The notes below the pieces were generated by a model that made no database searches, was not told the origin of the DNA, and was given only the letters and a program-made list of their open reading frames with translations. The position numbers were made by a program, and so were the translations under genes. Positions 5,024 through 41,608 of a DNA stretch of 64,000 nucleotides are shown here, in pieces (within the stretch, counting starts at the first letter, position 1; each line of letters begins with the position of its first letter). Origin of the DNA: the human T2T-CHM13v2.0 reference genome, Homo sapiens; the NCBI RefSeq assembly GCF_009914755.1, contig NC_060935.1, one strand, 5' to 3'.

Positions 5024-5246
5024 TGATTGGGGGTGGGAGAAGAGGTGGGGTTTCTTCTTATCATCCCTCTTGTGGTCAGTAAAATCATCTGACAAATGCC
5101 TTTCCAAGGATGTCGAATGTATATATAAAGAAAAAGCTTAGGATTGCTAAGGGAGTGGTATTTTGGTGAGGATTTCATTTTCTTCTACTCCATGGAAACG
5201 AGCCTTTTGAGCTTTTGCTTGTCTGCTGATTTGTCCGGTGATCCAG
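5024..5246 (+). promoter_or_regulatory. Candidate alternative promoter and first exon of ARHGEF12
   Basis: TGATTGG (reverse CCAAT) 5024, GGGTGGG 5031, CTTATC 5057, TATATAAA 5122, ATG 5192, donor CAG|gtaatc 5247; repeat-free context. Confidence 0.65.
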
Positions 5247-7679
5247 GTAATCTACTGCAGTCTTTGTTTTCTGGGTCGTGTATAAAATGGAGCAAAATGG
5301 TAGAAAAATAGCTTCAGTGAAAGGGATGTACCTGTTAACAGGAATAAAATAGAAAGGAAAAGGATATTTTTACATTGTTCATTATTATTTCTCACAACAG
5401 CTTTTAGGATTTTTATCATGTTTTAAAAAACCTAATTTGACCTAAGGAAGAAAATTCCTAGTTTTGAAAACCCGTGCCTTAATTGCTTAGCTTTAGAACA
5501 AAGGTTTTTACATCCAGCATTGCAAGGATATCTTTATTCAAAAGAATAGGATGCAGCATTCTTATGTTACCTTTTTAGAACTGAATTGGCATAACCTCTC
5601 TTGAATCTTAGAGACTTTGACGTATTATTCTGTGAATTGTGATTTAATTATCTCATGCTTCAGGATGGTTGTTTCCCTTTGATACCCAAGAGACCATGGA
5701 TGGGATATAGGGGGTGGGGATTAATATTACAGTGGGGGAAGGGAGTGTTTTTACAGAGTAACCTTCCTGTTTTTGCATTGGAAACTAAATTGAAATATAT
5801 AATCATTGGAAAAGGTGGTATCCATGGCACCAATCTTATCAACTTGAATTATTTTATCCTTTGTTCAGTTTGTGGTATTTTTGCTCTTGTCAGCTGAAAT
5901 GTTGATTATAAATTTGAAGAAGCTGCCGAGTTGCTGTGATGGCACTGGAATTGCATTCTGCTTTCTTTTTCTTTCCAATTATAGCTGTAAATACAGGAAC
6001 CAAGGGATGAATGTGAAAAGAAGTAATATAAAATGCTGAAGATATTTTTGGTTTTCTCTTGAAAGTATTTTTCATAGTGAGAATTATTTTCTTGTGGACA
6101 GAAAGAGCTAGGACCCTAATTTATGACATTAAAAAGCATTTAAGTGCTACAGACTTCTCTATTTAGGAAAGACAGACTGAAAACATGTTGAAGCGTACTA
6201 TGGAGCTTTCAGTTAAGTTGATTATTTCCATCATGGTGATATGAGTTATCATACTGTTTGCCACATTTTGAAAGCTGTTTGACTCCTCAGAAGTATTAAC
6301 AAATTAACAAATTCTTACTGAGCATTTACATTATGCTAGGTTCTTTAGATGTATATCAGGTTTATAGTCTAGTAAAGGATATAAAAAACTCATGCATATG
6401 ATGTACCATTTTTGGTGCAAGCATATAAGTATTGCAGTGTTATATATTTATGTACTGACATGTAGGTGTTTTACATAAGCTACTACATTTAATCCTCATA
6501 ACAACCTAGTCACGAAATTATTGTCATTCTTGTTATCCTATGCACATTAGTCCAAACAAGCAAACAAAAATTGTCATTCTCTTTTATAGATGAGAAAATT
6601 TACATTTTGAGAGATTAAGTGATTTACCATAAGTAACAAAGCCATGAAGTGATGAAGCCTGGGTCAGTCAGACTCTAAAGCTCTTTCCACTGTTTGTATA
6701 TGAGTAGATTAAAGCATTTTATCATGATTATTTGACATCACAAATAGTGATGCCATGAGTGAAAAGGAGATAGGGATCCTAATCTTTAATCTATGCCAAG
6801 AACTGAGTGATTGAGCAAATCATTTAACATCGTCTGTAAAGTGTGAGGGTTGGACTAGGCAACCTTGGTTCATGATTCTATTCAGTGTAAGAGATTTTCA
6901 CATATGGTCTATGGAAACAATTCTCATTACTTTAGTGTTTTTATTATATTTAGTTTCCATTACTCATCCTTCATAATGTGCTGTACATGTTGGATTGTGT
7001 GTGGTGGGGGGGGAGGGTGATAGAGTGCATATCATCTTCTAACATATTACATACAATATACATTTATTTATTAAGATTATTACTGTCTGTCATCTTCCTT
7101 CTTCCCTTCCCCCAAATATGTCACGAGGACCTAGACTAGAGCCTGGCTACATAGTATGCAGTTATAAACTAATTTTTTGAATGAATGAATAGGAATAATA
7201 GACTTGTATAGTACATTGGCAAAATATATAAGTAACTTCATAATTCTTAACACCAAAAGATTCCCTGGGGGCCAAAATTATTAATCTTTCTATTACAGTG
7301 ATCCTTTAAGGAACTAAGTGTAAGAATCTTAAAAAGAAGAACACCTACGAAACAATCAAGTGTAGTCAAGTAATCTGAAGTTTGCTGGAATTCCCCCATA
7401 CAAAATTATTGGTAGTATAGAACTTGCTAACCATAGGTTTGTTTACCCAGTGTTCTATTTGAAAGTAGTTTACTAAAGCATTCCATATAAGCAAAGAAAA
7501 AAAGCAGCAAAGTTTCTTTTTTGTTTATGTGTCACTGTATAGTCTCAAATGCTGTAAATTTACAGTGAGTAGAAAATATTCAGACCATTGAGTCTTTTGC
7601 TTAAAAGATATTTCGTAAGGTATAACATAACGTTTACTGGTAGTTTTGTTTCATTTAAACATTAGGCTTCTTGAGAGTT

Positions 7680-9775
7680 TTAACAGTTTTATTGAAATGT
7701 AATTGGTGTATAATAAACTGCCTATGGTTAGAGTATAATTTGATAGGTTTTGATGTATATACACGATTAGGAAACTATCACCACAATTGAGAAAATAAAC
7801 ATATTCACCCCAAAGGTTTCCTTGTGCATTTTCATAATTTCTCCGTCCCTCCACCCCTCCTCACCTATCCCCAGGTGTACCCATTGACTTGTCTTTGGTC
7901 CTTATAGAGTAGTTTGAATTTTCTTGCTTTCTTTCTTGTCATTATAGATTAATTTGCATGTCTTTTTGTAAGTGAACTCACATAGTTTGTGCTTTTCTTA
8001 TGTGGTCTCTTTTACTCTGCATAATTATTTTGAGATTTGTCTGTATTCCTGTGTATCAGTAGTTCATTTCTTTTTATTGCTGAATGATATCCCATTGTGT
8101 GGATATACCACAGTTTATCCATTCAGCTGTTGATGGGCATTTGGGTTGTTTCAAGTTTTAGACTATTAGGAATAAGTTTGCTTTGGACATTCATGTACAA
8201 GTTTTTGTGTGTACATAAGCTTTCATCTCTTAGGTAAACACCCAGGAGTGGAATGGCTGGATTATATGGTAGGTATATATTTTAACTCTTTAAGAAATTG
8301 CCAGACTGTTTTTCCAGGTGACTGTATTGTGTTACATTCCCATTAGCAACATTCCAGTTGCTGCACAACTTCATTAATAGTTGGTTTTGTCAGTCTTTTT
8401 AATTTTAGCCATTTTACTGTGTGTGTGATGGTATCATATTGTAGTTTTTATTTGCATTTCATCTGATGACTAAAAATGTTTAACATATTTTCATGTGCCT
8501 GTTTTATCATCCATACTTCTTTTGTGGATTGTCTGTTCAAATCTTGTTTTTAATTGAGCTTTTAATTATTGGGTTGTAAGAGTTCCTTATATGTTTGGGA
8601 TATAAGTGCTTTTATTTTTTTTTTATTTTATTTTATTTTGCGACAGAGTTTTGCTCTTGTTTCCCAGGCTGGAGTTCAATGGTGCAATCTTGGCTCACTA
8701 CAGCCTCCTCCTCCTGAGTTCAAGCGATTCTCCTGCCTCAGCCTCCCAAGTAGCTGGGATTACAGGTGGCCACCACCATGCCTGGCTAATTTATTTCTAG
8801 TTTTAGTTTTAGTAGAGATGGAGTTTCATCATGTTAGCCAGGCTGGTTTCGAACTCCTGACCTCAAGTAATCTGCCTGCCTCAGCCTCCCAAGGTGCTAG
8901 GATTACAGGCATGAGCCACCATGCCCGGCCATAAGTCCTTTTAGGTATATGATTTAGAAATACTTTCTCCCAGCCTGTGGCTTGTATTTTCATTTTTTAG
9001 CATCCTCTTTCTCTCTTTAATACTTTTATTGAGATATAATTCACATTTCCTTGAGCAAAAGTTTTAAAGTTTGAATTCTAATTTATCATTTTTTCTTTCG
9101 TAGATTGTGCTTTTGCTATATCTAAGAAATATTTGCCTAACCCAAGGTCACACCTCTTTGCTTCTAGTTTTATAGTTTTGGGTTTTACTTTTAGGTCTGT
9201 GATACATTTTCAGGTAGTCTTTTATTTTTAATTTTTGTGGGTACCTAGTAAGTGTATGTATTTATGGATTACATCAGATATTTTGATATAGGCATGCAAT
9301 GTGTAATAATCACATCAGGGTGGATGGGGTATCTTTCATCTCAAGCATTTATCTTTTGTGTTACAAACAATCCAGTTGTACTCTTTTAGTTATTTTTAAT
9401 GTACAGTTAAACTATTTTTTACTATAATCACCCTCCACTACCCTTCCCAGCCTCTGATAATCATCCTTCTACTTTCTGTCTCCATGAGTTCAATTGTTTT
9501 AATTTTTAGCTTCCACAAATGAGTGAGAACATGTGAAGTTTGTCTTTCTGTTGCTGGCTTATTTCACTTACCATAATGACGTCCATTTCCATCCATCTTG
9601 TTGCAAATGACAGGAACTCATTCTTTTTTATGGCTAAATAGTACTCCATTGTGTATATGTACCACATTTTCTTTATCCATTTGTTTGTTGATAGATACTT
9701 AGGTTGCTTCCAAATCTTGGCTATTGTGAATAATGCTGCAAAAAACATGGGAGTGCAGATAACCCTTCGATATCC
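7680..9775 (-). mobile_element. L1M 3' fragments (nested; a younger L1MA/PB-type piece at about 9225-9775)
   Basis: ORF 9506..9748(-) MFFAALFTIAKIWKQPKY...WIKKMWYIYTMEYY is L1 ORF2 C-terminus. Confidence 0.85.
8614..8930 (-). mobile_element. AluS inserted in L1
   Basis: antisense Alu consensus; degenerate TSD ATAAGT(G/C)CTTTTA. Confidence 0.92.
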
Positions 9776-41185: not shown

Positions 41186-41454
41186 TGTTTTTTTTTTTTT
41201 TTTTTTTTTTTGGAGATGGAGTCTCCCTCTGTCACCAGACTGGAGTGCAGTGGCACAATCTAGGCTCACTGCAACCTCTGCCTCCTGGGTTAAAGCGACT
41301 CTCCTGCCTCAGCCTGCCGAGCAGCTGGGACTACAGGCACGTGCCACCACACCCAGTGAATTTTTGTATTTTTAGTAGAGACGGGGTTTTACCATGTTGG
41401 CCAGGATGGTCTCGATCTCTTGACCTCGTGATCCGCCCGCCTCGGCCTCCCAAA
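41186..41454 (-). mobile_element. AluS, 5'-truncated
   Basis: antisense Alu ending at ggcctcccaaag. Confidence 0.9.
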
Positions 41455-41558
41455 GGACAGCCCATGTTTTTAACCAGTTTGTTATACTGTCTCTCTGTCA
41501 GGAAGATGATCAGTAAATGCAAATGAATCACATTTTAAGCAATTAATTTCTCATACAG

Positions 41559-41608
41559 ATGGAGCAGCCATGCGGGCTGGAGTACAGACAGGTGATCGAA
41601 TCATCAAG
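41559..41608 (+). CDS. ARHGEF12: ARHGEF12 exon 6, 50 nt, (D)GAAMRAGVQTGDRIIK
   Basis: atacag|ATGGAG...ATCAAG|gtaagg; PDZ motif AGVQTGDRI. Confidence 0.96.

What the first reader, a model, noticed from the sequence alone, without database searches (positions are those of the whole stretch)
5192..41608. Putative N-terminal switchboard: several intronic start exons with phase-matched entry into LARG
Seen: three ATG + GT-donor units in repeat-free intronic islands: A (5192, phase 1), B (20999, phase 2) and C (29737, phase 1). B matches the exon 2 acceptor, C matches the exon 5 acceptor, and A is rescued only by skipping to exon 4/5 or by including the last 7 nt of B. Inference: promoter choice plus microexon use could select full-length, new-leader, PDZ-at-N-terminus or PDZ-truncated LARG. 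This layer is invisible in the ORF track. Each phase match alone has about a 1-in-3 chance probability, so transcript evidence is essential.
Basis: inference. Interest (0 to 1): 0.75.

Follow-up and report, generated by a model that had tools for sequence, protein, structure and literature searches.

The report
Alternative 5' exons of human LARG
Of three proposed hidden start exons in the human LARG (ARHGEF12) gene, one lies in an already annotated alternative first exon, one matches the start of a LARG form predicted in macaques and baboons but not annotated in human, and one looks like chance, so this is ordinary start-site variation and not a coordinated switch.

Summary
All three ATG+GT units sit exactly where stated, and every phase claim is correct. 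Such units are not rarer than chance. There are 87 on the gene strand of 1-41558, 88 on the opposite strand, and 77±13 in simulations.

- **Unit A** lies inside the RefSeq alternative first exon 5087-5246. Its ATG is the fourth AUG of that exon. Joined to exon 2 it gives a 25-codon upstream ORF. No database protein carries its leader. The only long ORF of such transcripts starts at Met104 in exon 6 (ATG 41570). That gives a PDZ-truncated form, and 18 of 120 listed mammalian models have it.
- **Unit C** joined to exon 5 gives exactly the N-terminus of seven 1482-aa LARG models from six macaque, baboon and gelada species. No human or ape model has it. It is intact in human but absent from the RefSeq table I was given.
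- **Unit B** and the 7-nt microexon have no support.

Verdict: a few lineage-variable alternative 5' exons, not a switchboard. Interest is low. No transcript data or genome alignments could be consulted.

The parts
5087..5246 (+). RefSeq-annotated alternative first exon of ARHGEF12, which holds unit A
   Evidence: Hub table lists it under 'exons of other transcripts'. Bases 5085-5086 are TC, not AG, so it is a first exon. Donor CAG|gtaatc. No CpG island. Single copy in the genome.
5192..5246 (+). Unit A: ATG plus 55 nt, phase 1. Most likely the start of an upstream ORF.
   Evidence: It is the 4th ATG of the exon, after 5096, 5110 and 5117, with T at -3. Joined to exon 2 it gives 25 codons and a stop inside exon 2. 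It is open only into exons 4, 5 and 6. Its leader is in no protein at E<=10.
8239..8268 (+). Second RefSeq-annotated alternative first exon (30 nt).
   Evidence: Preceded by AA, not AG. Donor ATG|gtaggt. ATG 8253 is its first AUG, with G at -3 and G at +4, 16 nt, phase 1. Joined to exon 2 it gives a 12-codon upstream ORF.
20999..21027 (+). Unit B: ATG plus 29 nt, phase 2. Judged a chance pseudo-exon.
   Evidence: Strong donor GAG|gtaagc (score 11.37). Poor ATG context (T at -3, A at +4). It is one of 29 units in intron 1 that match exon 2. Not an exon in the hub table. Its leader is in 0 of 169 fetched proteins.
21021..21027 (+). Proposed 7-nt microexon. Arithmetic only.
   Evidence: It restores A's frame into exon 2, but three other cassettes do the same.
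25876..25899 (+). Exon 2 (24 nt), needs incoming phase 2
   Evidence: Skipped in one Papio model, P0090.
26718..26783 (+). Human counterpart of a macaque-predicted leader exon that enters exon 3. It is closed in human.
   Evidence: Residues 1-16 of P0072 match 26718-26765 at 15 of 16. The human frame ends at TAA 26781.
29152..29208 (+). Exon 4 (57 nt), a known NOVA2-regulated cassette next to the PDZ domain
   Evidence: PMC10178952 Table 1 and the PMC12221596 table (passages read). Absent in 43 of 120 fetched proteins that start MSGTQ.
29737..29749 (+). Unit C: ATG plus 13 nt, phase 1. Human counterpart of the 5' coding exon of the 1482-aa LARG models of macaques, baboon and gelada.
   Evidence: A at -3 and G at +4, donor TAC|gtaagt. 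C>exon 5 gives the N-terminus of P0046, P0048, P0049, P0050, P0055, P0062 and P0064. Not an exon in the hub table.
40511..40609 (+). Exon 5, the start of the PDZ domain, needs incoming phase 1. Its donor is GC.
   Evidence: Its 32 whole codons equal residues 6-37 of the 89-residue solved LARG PDZ chain 2omj_A/2os6. Donor AAG|gcaagg.
41559..41608 (+). Exon 6, holding ATG 41570 (Met104), the first main-frame ATG downstream of exon 1
   Evidence: The numbering comes from the 32 nt of exon-1 coding sequence found. 18 of 120 listed models start here.

Best explanation
The 5' third of human ARHGEF12 holds a few independent alternative 5' exons. It is not a coordinated N-terminal switchboard.

(1) Exon 5087-5246 (unit A) and exon 8239-8268 are annotated intronic first exons that lack CpG islands. 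Their ATGs (5192 and 8253) are out of frame with exon 2. In the default splice to exon 2 they open short upstream ORFs of 25 and 12 codons that end inside exon 2. The only long ORF of these transcripts starts at Met104 (ATG 41570, exon 6). That removes about the first 40 residues of the PDZ domain. Such a protein should keep the downstream RGS-like (RH) domain and the Dbl/pleckstrin (DH/PH) exchange module, but lose coupling to receptors that bind the PDZ domain.

(2) Unit C is the human counterpart of the 5' coding exon of a 1482-aa LARG that begins directly at the PDZ domain. This form is predicted in Macaca, Papio and Theropithecus. The ATG, frame and donor are intact in human, but on present evidence the exon is silent or rare there.

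(3) Unit B and the 7-nt microexon are chance pairings of an ATG with a donor-like site.

Shown: coordinates, phases, ORFs, the chance background, and the database matches. Inferred: which junctions human transcripts really use, and which AUGs ribosomes use.
For: Coordinates, phases and junction ORFs.

First-exon status of 5087 and 8239: no AG before either, plus the hub table.

Met104: the canonical start is at window -43009 with 32 coding nt in exon 1, and its promoter is a CpG island (GC 0.74-0.81, CpG obs/exp 0.88-1.09). No 500-nt stretch of the 64-kb window is island-like. ATG 41570 is the 11th ATG after TSS 5087 and the 9th after TSS 8239, and the first that opens the main frame.

Annotated forms: 18 of the 120 listed LARG models start at that Met. 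They come from Otolemur, Callithrix, Saguinus, Chlorocebus, Cercocebus, Rhinopithecus, Macaca, Papio, Theropithecus, Equus and Mesocricetus.

PDZ: exon 5 equals residues 6-37 of the solved LARG PDZ chain.

Unit C: 7 of the 120 listed proteins begin with C's four codons, the junction codon, then exon 5. A search aimed at that N-terminus gave 1210 hits. Among the best 120, only the same 7 cover all 40 residues.

Unit A: 21 candidates shared words with its leader and none scored E<=10.

Chance background.

Function of the PDZ domain: LARG lacking it no longer co-precipitates Unc5B, and the PDZ domain binds plexin-B1 and the IGF-1 receptor (PMC2686409, passages read).
Against: No transcript, CAGE, ribosome-profiling or cross-species DNA data could be consulted. 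Which junctions are used in human is therefore inferred from the hub's exon list alone. That list gives exons, not junctions or coding regions.

My statement that human RefSeq has a 1441-aa isoform 3 is recalled, not shown by any search.

Met104 lies behind 8-10 upstream ATGs, so the protein may be made poorly. These transcripts may be mostly non-productive.

The monkey models are computational predictions. Related species' models may not be independent, and I could not see their evidence or whether the C exon is first or internal there.

B's donor is among the 5 best donor-like sites on the + strand of 1-41558, and a 9-aa leader cannot be searched with these tools, so B is only weakly excluded.

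The two protein lists show the best 120 of 562 and of 1210 hits, and each covers only a set range of protein lengths.
Confidence: 0.6

Rival explanations
1. Unit C is a real human alternative first exon. A weak promoter in intron 4 starts transcripts between about 29703 and 29736. ATG 29737 is then the first AUG, and splicing 29749>40511 gives a LARG that begins at the PDZ domain and lacks residues 1-71. This form would be shared with macaques and baboons and merely missing from human RefSeq.
For: The ATG has the best context of the three units (A at -3, G at +4), and the donor has GTAAGT at +1 to +6. It is the only strong-context unit of the 3 in intron 4 that match exon 5. It gives exactly the N-terminus of 7 predicted proteins in 6 Old World monkey species, from NCBI and UniRef sources. 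The human copy is intact.
Against: It is not among the exons of the 19 RefSeq transcripts in the hub table. No human, ape, colobine, Chlorocebus or New World monkey protein among the best 120 of 1210 hits carries the leader. An out-of-frame ATG at 29702 stays open through the donor in phase 0 (read directly), so the start site would have to fall within about 35 nt. No CpG island or TATA consensus lies upstream. Keeping about 20 bases unchanged between human and macaque is expected without selection (general knowledge of their divergence, not computed here).
Confidence: 0.15
2. Unit C is the 3' end of an internal cassette ('poison') exon, for example 29713-29749, included between exon 4 and exon 5. 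Inclusion stops the canonical frame. The monkey '1482-aa isoform' is then only the longest ORF that an annotation pipeline calls from the internal ATG. The exon's real effect would be to lower LARG output through nonsense-mediated decay.
For: Six AG dinucleotides lie between 29600 and 29736. For all 6 of 6, an exon running from that AG to 29749 and placed after exon 4 gives a stop codon. A T-rich tract (29660-29700) precedes the AG at 29711-29712. Pyrimidine content from -45 to -4 is 0.67. Exon 4 next door is a regulated cassette.
Against: Pyrimidine content from -20 to -4 of that acceptor is only 0.53, below all 7 annotated acceptors measured (0.59-0.88). The exon is not in the hub table. No paper pairs ARHGEF12 with 'poison exon' (0 papers). 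I could not see the monkey transcripts.
Confidence: 0.2
3. A, B and C are all used as start exons in human. Promoter choice plus a 7-nt microexon selects full-length, new-leader, PDZ-first or PDZ-truncated LARG.
For: All phase arithmetic is right. A lies in a real first exon (hub table). C matches monkey models. Leaders entering exon 2 or exon 5 are predicted in other mammals: Mus spicilegus and Nycticebus into exon 2, Ochotona into exon 5.
Against: Unit counts equal those of the opposite strand and of simulations. A's leader is in no protein. B's is in 0 of 169 fetched proteins. The microexon is one of at least four equivalent options. The non-canonical leaders seen differ from species to species, which argues against a conserved designed system. 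One macaque leader is broken in human.
Confidence: 0.03

Closest known systems
Alternative promoters and alternative first exons that give N-terminal protein isoforms in mammalian genes
   Same: Intronic first exons without an acceptor (5087-5246 and 8239-8268) splice into the common body. The products differ only at the N-terminus: a Met104 start, or a leader entering exon 5 in monkey models.
   Different: Here the annotated human first exons carry no in-frame start of their own. The N-terminal change comes from falling back on an internal Met, behind 8-10 upstream ATGs.
Upstream ORFs in alternative 5' leaders
   Same: ATG 5192 and ATG 8253 open 25- and 12-codon ORFs that end inside exon 2 when spliced to exon 2.
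   Different: Not shown to be translated or to regulate anything. Both would become in-frame starts if exons 2-3 were skipped.
LARG-deltaPDZ laboratory constructs, and the PDZ-less paralogue p115-RhoGEF
   Same: A Met104-start LARG would lack the first half of the PDZ domain. It should therefore behave like deltaPDZ, which fails to bind Unc5B (PMC2686409, passages read).
   Different: The natural form keeps the second half of the PDZ sequence. Its folding and stability are unknown.
NOVA2-regulated skipping of ARHGEF12 exon 4
   Same: This is the one N-terminal splicing switch of this gene that I found in print. It lies 529 nt upstream of unit C and next to the PDZ domain.
   Different: It is an in-frame 19-aa cassette, not a change of start site.
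Intronic pseudo-exons (decoy splice-site pairs)
   Same: Unit B and the 7-nt unit have good-looking sites but no annotation or database support. Their frequency matches the opposite strand and simulations.
   Different: B's donor score (11.37) is as high as the best real donors in the window.

Membership tests
Alternative first exon (alternative promoter) | The exon start is a transcription start, with no AG acceptor directly upstream | tested here: met
   5085-5086 is TC and 8237-8238 is AA. This holds for exon A and exon 8239. For B and C no exon start is known.
Alternative first exon (alternative promoter) | Transcript or capped 5'-end evidence for the start site | not testable with these tools
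   For A and 8239 I have only the hub's RefSeq table. For C, only predicted proteins of six monkey species. For B, nothing.
Alternative first exon (alternative promoter) | The donor is spliced to a downstream constitutive acceptor | not testable with these tools
   The hub table lists exons, not junctions. Donor scores are 7.83 for A, 11.37 for B, 6.0 for C and 7.79 for 8268, against 1.89-11.94 for the 14 annotated donors (the matrix is recalled and approximate).
Alternative first exon giving a new in-frame N-terminus | The exon's own first AUG is in frame with the next exon used | tested here: not met
   A: its 4th AUG, phase 1 against the required 2. Exon 8239: phase 1 against 2. It is met on paper for C>exon 5 and B>exon 2.
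Upstream ORF | An AUG upstream of the main start, with a stop before or overlapping the main ORF | tested here: met
   ATG 5192 gives 25 codons and ATG 8253 gives 12 codons, both stopping in exon 2. Three further short ORFs lie in exon A. Translation was not tested.
Microexon | A very short exon with a functional acceptor and donor, seen in transcripts and usually conserved | tested here: inconclusive
   21021-21027 has AG, a 0.65 pyrimidine tract and a strong donor. Three other cassettes give the same rescue. There is no transcript or conservation test.
Poison (NMD-coupled) cassette exon | Inclusion brings in a premature stop | tested here: met
   6 of 6 candidate acceptors upstream of C give a stop after exon 4. 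Whether the exon is ever included, and whether such transcripts are sensitive to nonsense-mediated decay, was not testable.
PDZ domain (extent of truncation) | Exon 5 encodes the first strands of the LARG PDZ fold | tested here: met
   32 of 32 residues are identical to positions 6-37 of 2omj_A, E 3.8e-17. Pfam found nothing on the single-exon fragments (0 families for 2 fragments), which are too short.

The most novel reading that the evidence does not exclude
Human LARG has an unannotated natural isoform that starts at ATG 29737 and begins directly with the PDZ domain. It would be shared with macaques and baboons and driven by a weak promoter in intron 4. In addition, both RefSeq intronic first exons (ATG 5192, and ATG 8253 in strong context, both phase 1) can skip exons 2-3 and enter exon 4, 5 or 6 in frame. 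Start-site choice would then really tune the segment before the PDZ domain and so the coupling of RhoA activation to plexin-B1, IGF-1R and Unc5B.
Probability: 0.1. Interest if true: 0.4.

Novelty: new member of a known kind. Interest (0 to 1): 0.2.

Why it matters
The LARG PDZ domain ties this RhoA activator to plexin-B1, the IGF-1 receptor and Unc5B. A construct without it no longer binds Unc5B (PMC2686409, passages read). Natural forms that start inside the PDZ domain (Met104) or exactly at it (the unit C leader) would change which receptors can switch on RhoA through LARG. That bears on axon guidance, endothelial biology and cancer.

The practical result is narrow. One junction, 29749>40511, is worth a database query in human data, because the same product is predicted in six monkey species. 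The other proposed junctions are not worth pursuing first.

There is also a lesson about method. ATG+donor phase matches are as common as chance in this intron-rich sequence, so they need outside evidence before any is believed.

Tried and rejected
- **Pfam on single exons.** Exon 5 (32 aa) and exon 8 (59 aa) gave 0 families. The fragments are too short, so I used the solved-structure search instead. One Pfam call failed on a wrong frame and I corrected it.
- **Unit A leader search.** I then sent the whole 60-aa stop-to-stop frame around it and got no hit. B (9 aa), C (4 aa) and the 8253 leader (5 aa) cannot be searched this way.
- **Other species' leaders in the window.** Patterns for the Mus (into exon 2) and Nycticebus (into exon 2) leaders gave 0 matches each.
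- **Promoter signals.** No CpG-island-like stretch exists anywhere in the window. The TATA consensus occurs only at 5120 and 5122, inside exon A, and 44 times in the whole window, so it is weak evidence.
- **Idea that C's 'island' is a NOVA-binding cluster.** 29700-29799 holds 4 YCAY motifs, which is the 95th percentile. This is unremarkable, so I dropped the idea.
- **Recursive splice site at B.** Rejected on reading the sequence. The bases after the AG at 21019-21020 are TT, not GT.
- **Paper searches.** Nothing found on intronic promoters or N-terminal isoforms of this gene:
  - ARHGEF12 + 'alternative promoter': 5 papers; I read passages in 3 and none was relevant; the other 2 I saw only in the listing.
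  - 'NM_001301084': 0 papers.
  - ARHGEF12 + 'alternative first exon': 0 papers.
  - ARHGEF12 + 'microexon': 3 papers, only exon 4 or unrelated matters.
  - ARHGEF12 + 'proteoform': 4 papers, listing only.
  - ARHGEF12 + 'transcript variant': 14 papers, 12 listed, listing only.
  - ARHGEF12 + 'poison exon': 0 papers.
  - Supplementary tables were not searched.

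
Full report
**What was claimed.** It proposed that promoter choice plus a 7-nt microexon selects between N-terminal forms of the protein.

**Check of the observation.** All coordinates are exact.
- ATG 5192 runs to 5246|GT: 55 nt, phase 1.
- ATG 20999 runs to 21027|GT: 29 nt, phase 2.
- ATG 29737 runs to 29749|GT: 13 nt, phase 1.

Translating the 14 annotated exons fixes the reading frame. The required incoming phases are 2 for exons 2 and 3, 1 for exons 4, 5 and 6, and 0 for exon 7. In-silico joins confirm every claim. 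B is open into exon 2 (and 3). C is open into exon 5 (and 6). A>exon 2 stops after 25 codons. A + 21021-21027 > exon 2 is open. Each unit with its flanks matches only itself in the window's own 3.1-Gb genome, so 'repeat-free' holds at that search's sensitivity.

**Is it more than chance? No.** I scored donors with a simple position matrix. The matrix is recalled and approximate, and I used it only to rank sites. The 14 real donors score 1.89-11.94. A scores 7.83, B 11.37 and C 6.0. I then counted every ATG whose frame stays open to a donor at least as good as C's within 200 nt.
- The + strand of 1-41558 holds 87 units on 50 donors.
- The - strand, which carries no gene, holds 88 on 54.
- Thirty first-order Markov simulations give 77.1 ± 13.1, range 44-103.
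- With the cut at C's own score, 34 of 89 units match the next acceptor and 61 of 89 match some acceptor up to exon 6.
- By intron: 29 of 69 units in the window's part of intron 1 match exon 2. In intron 4, 3 of 13 match exon 5, and C is the only one with a purine at -3 and G at +4.
- B's donor is unusually good. It is one of 5 sites at or above 11.3 on the + strand, against 3 on the - strand.
- The 7-nt rescue is not unique. Three other AG…GT cassettes between A and exon 2 restore A's frame without a stop, including another 7-nt one at 18128-18134.

**Unit A.** It lies inside the exon 5087-5246 that the hub's RefSeq table lists for other ARHGEF12 transcripts. The two bases before 5087 are TC, so this is a first exon. 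A second listed exon, 8239-8268, is preceded by AA and is also a first exon.

Neither sits in a CpG island. CpG observed/expected is 0.36 and 0.0 around them, and no 500-nt stretch of the window is island-like. The canonical promoter 43 kb upstream is a clear island.

ATG 5192 is the fourth ATG of exon A, after 5096, 5110 and 5117, and has T at -3. Spliced to exon 2 it gives 25 codons that stop inside exon 2. ATG 8253 is the first AUG of the other exon and has a strong context. It likewise gives 12 codons. In both transcripts the first ATG that opens the main frame is 41570 in exon 6. It is the 11th or 9th ATG respectively.

I located the canonical start at window -43009, with 32 coding nt in exon 1. 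That makes 41570 codon 104.

A 60-aa frame containing A's 18-aa leader found no protein at E ≤ 10. Twenty-one candidates shared words with it and none scored. An exact 18-residue match should have passed that threshold by my estimate, which is inference.

**What the Met104 form is.** Exon 5's 32 whole codons are identical to residues 6-37 of the 89-residue solved LARG PDZ chain 2omj_A/2os6. A start at Met104 therefore removes roughly the first 40 residues of that domain.

This form is widely annotated. I searched a large protein database with exon 8, which gave 562 hits with the best 120 listed. Eighteen of the 120 start at this Met. They come from Otolemur, Callithrix, Saguinus, Chlorocebus, Cercocebus, Rhinopithecus, three Macaca species, Papio, Theropithecus, two Equus species and Mesocricetus. 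Eight of them are 1441 aa long.

I recall that human RefSeq has a 1441-aa 'isoform 3'. No call showed this.

**Unit C: the surprise.** Seven of the same 120 proteins begin with C's four codons, the junction codon, and then exon 5. All seven are 1482 aa long:
- Macaca mulatta (UniRef)
- M. thibetana X1
- M. fascicularis X5 and X4
- M. nemestrina X4
- Papio anubis X4
- Theropithecus gelada (UniRef)

1482 aa is also what the arithmetic gives for C>exon 5. A second search aimed at the first 40 residues of one of them gave 1210 hits. Among the best 120, only these seven cover all 40 residues (73 bits). The other 113 cover 88% (64 bits) and lack the leader. None of the seven is from human, an ape, a colobine, Chlorocebus or a New World monkey. 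That search covered only proteins of 815-2594 aa.

In human the ATG, its strong context and the GTAAGT donor are intact. But the hub table lists no exon there among 19 RefSeq transcripts. So C is the human counterpart of a 5' coding exon predicted in macaques, baboons and geladas. Whether humans use it is open.

I could not see the monkey transcripts, so two structures remain possible.
- **First exon.** An out-of-frame ATG at 29702 stays open through the donor in phase 0. The start site would therefore have to lie in about 29703-29736 for 29737 to be the first AUG (read).
- **Internal cassette.** All 6 of 6 AG acceptors between 29600 and 29736 give a stop codon when the exon follows exon 4. 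The '1482-aa isoform' could then be no more than the longest ORF of a transcript with a poison exon.

**Unit B.** It has no support. It is not an exon in the hub table. Its ATG context is poor (T at -3, A at +4). It is one of 29 equivalent units. Its leader occurs in 0 of the 169 proteins fetched. Nine residues are too few to search directly, so this exclusion is weak.

**The wider picture from the 169 fetched proteins.** 117 have the canonical leader entering exon 2. 43 of the 120 proteins that start MSGTQ lack exon 4. One Papio model skips the 24-nt exon 2. Several other leaders are each confined to one species:
- Mus spicilegus and Nycticebus, into exon 2.
- Ochotona, into exon 5.
- Macaca mulatta, into exon 3.

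The macaque exon-3 leader maps to human 26718-26765 at 15 of 16 residues. In human its frame is closed by TAA at 26781. So alternative 5' exons come and go between lineages at this locus. That is the opposite of a conserved, coordinated switchboard.

**What is in print.** The only N-terminal splicing event of this gene that I found is NOVA2-regulated skipping of exon 4, next to the PDZ domain (PMC10178952 Table 1; PMC12221596 table; passages read). Searches for alternative promoters, alternative first exons, microexons, proteoforms, transcript variants and poison exons of ARHGEF12 gave nothing relevant. Supplementary tables were not searched.

On function, LARG without its PDZ domain fails to co-precipitate Unc5B, and the domain binds plexin-B1 and the IGF-1 receptor (PMC2686409, passages read).

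**Mechanism I commit to (confidence about 0.6).**
- Two intronic promoters without CpG islands give transcripts whose leader AUGs act as upstream ORFs. Their only long ORF starts at Met104. The result is a PDZ-crippled LARG made at low efficiency, or largely non-productive RNA.
- C is an intact counterpart of a monkey-annotated exon, silent or rare in human.
- B and the microexon are chance.

The coordinates, phases, ORFs, background counts and database matches are shown. Junction usage and AUG usage in human are inferred.

**Verdict.** It is not supported as a switchboard. Novelty is at most a new member of a known kind: a possible unannotated human alternative 5' exon. Interest is low (0.2). 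The one follow-up worth doing is to query the junction 29749>40511 and capped 5' ends near 29700 in human data.

Noticed in passing
window 40609-40615: The intron after exon 5 has a GC donor (AAG|gcaagg), not GT. It is the only non-GT donor among the 14 annotated exons in the window.
   Followed up: no
window 29014-29113: Six YCAY motifs fall in 100 nt (the 99th percentile of the window is 5), ending 39 nt upstream of exon 4. The papers read report exon 4 as NOVA2-regulated. An upstream cluster would fit NOVA-promoted skipping, but that positional rule is recalled, not tested.
   Followed up: partly
window 8239-8268: The second RefSeq alternative first exon carries its own first AUG at 8253 in strong context (G at -3, G at +4). 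It ends in phase 1, like unit A. Both annotated intronic first exons would therefore be in frame with exons 4, 5 and 6 if exons 2-3 were skipped. The chance that both are phase 1 is about 1 in 9.
   Followed up: partly
window 26718-26783: This is the human counterpart of a Macaca mulatta predicted leader exon that enters exon 3 (proteins P0072 and P0089). 15 of 16 residues match, but the human frame is shifted and closed by TAA at 26781.
   Followed up: yes
window 25195-25257: The N-terminal 21 residues of a Rhinopithecus bieti UniRef fragment (P0042), which then continues into exon 3, match here at 19 of 21. The site is about 620 nt upstream of exon 2. It may be another alternative exon or an annotation artefact.
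   Followed up: no
window 5120-5129: A TATA consensus (TATATATAAA) lies inside annotated exon A, 63-72 nt upstream of ATG 5192. If it set a start site about 30 nt downstream, 5192 would be the first AUG of that shorter transcript. The motif occurs 44 times in the window, so this is weak.
   Followed up: no
window 25876-25899: Exon 2 is itself a 24-nt exon. One Papio anubis model (P0090, 1536 aa) skips it in frame.
   Followed up: no
window 14074-14113: One of the cassettes that would rescue A's frame has an Alu-like look (…GGGACTACAG|gtg) and lies in a stretch the hub lists as masked (14042-14254). This is the usual kind of site for repeat-derived exon creation. The family name is recalled, not tested.
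   Followed up: no
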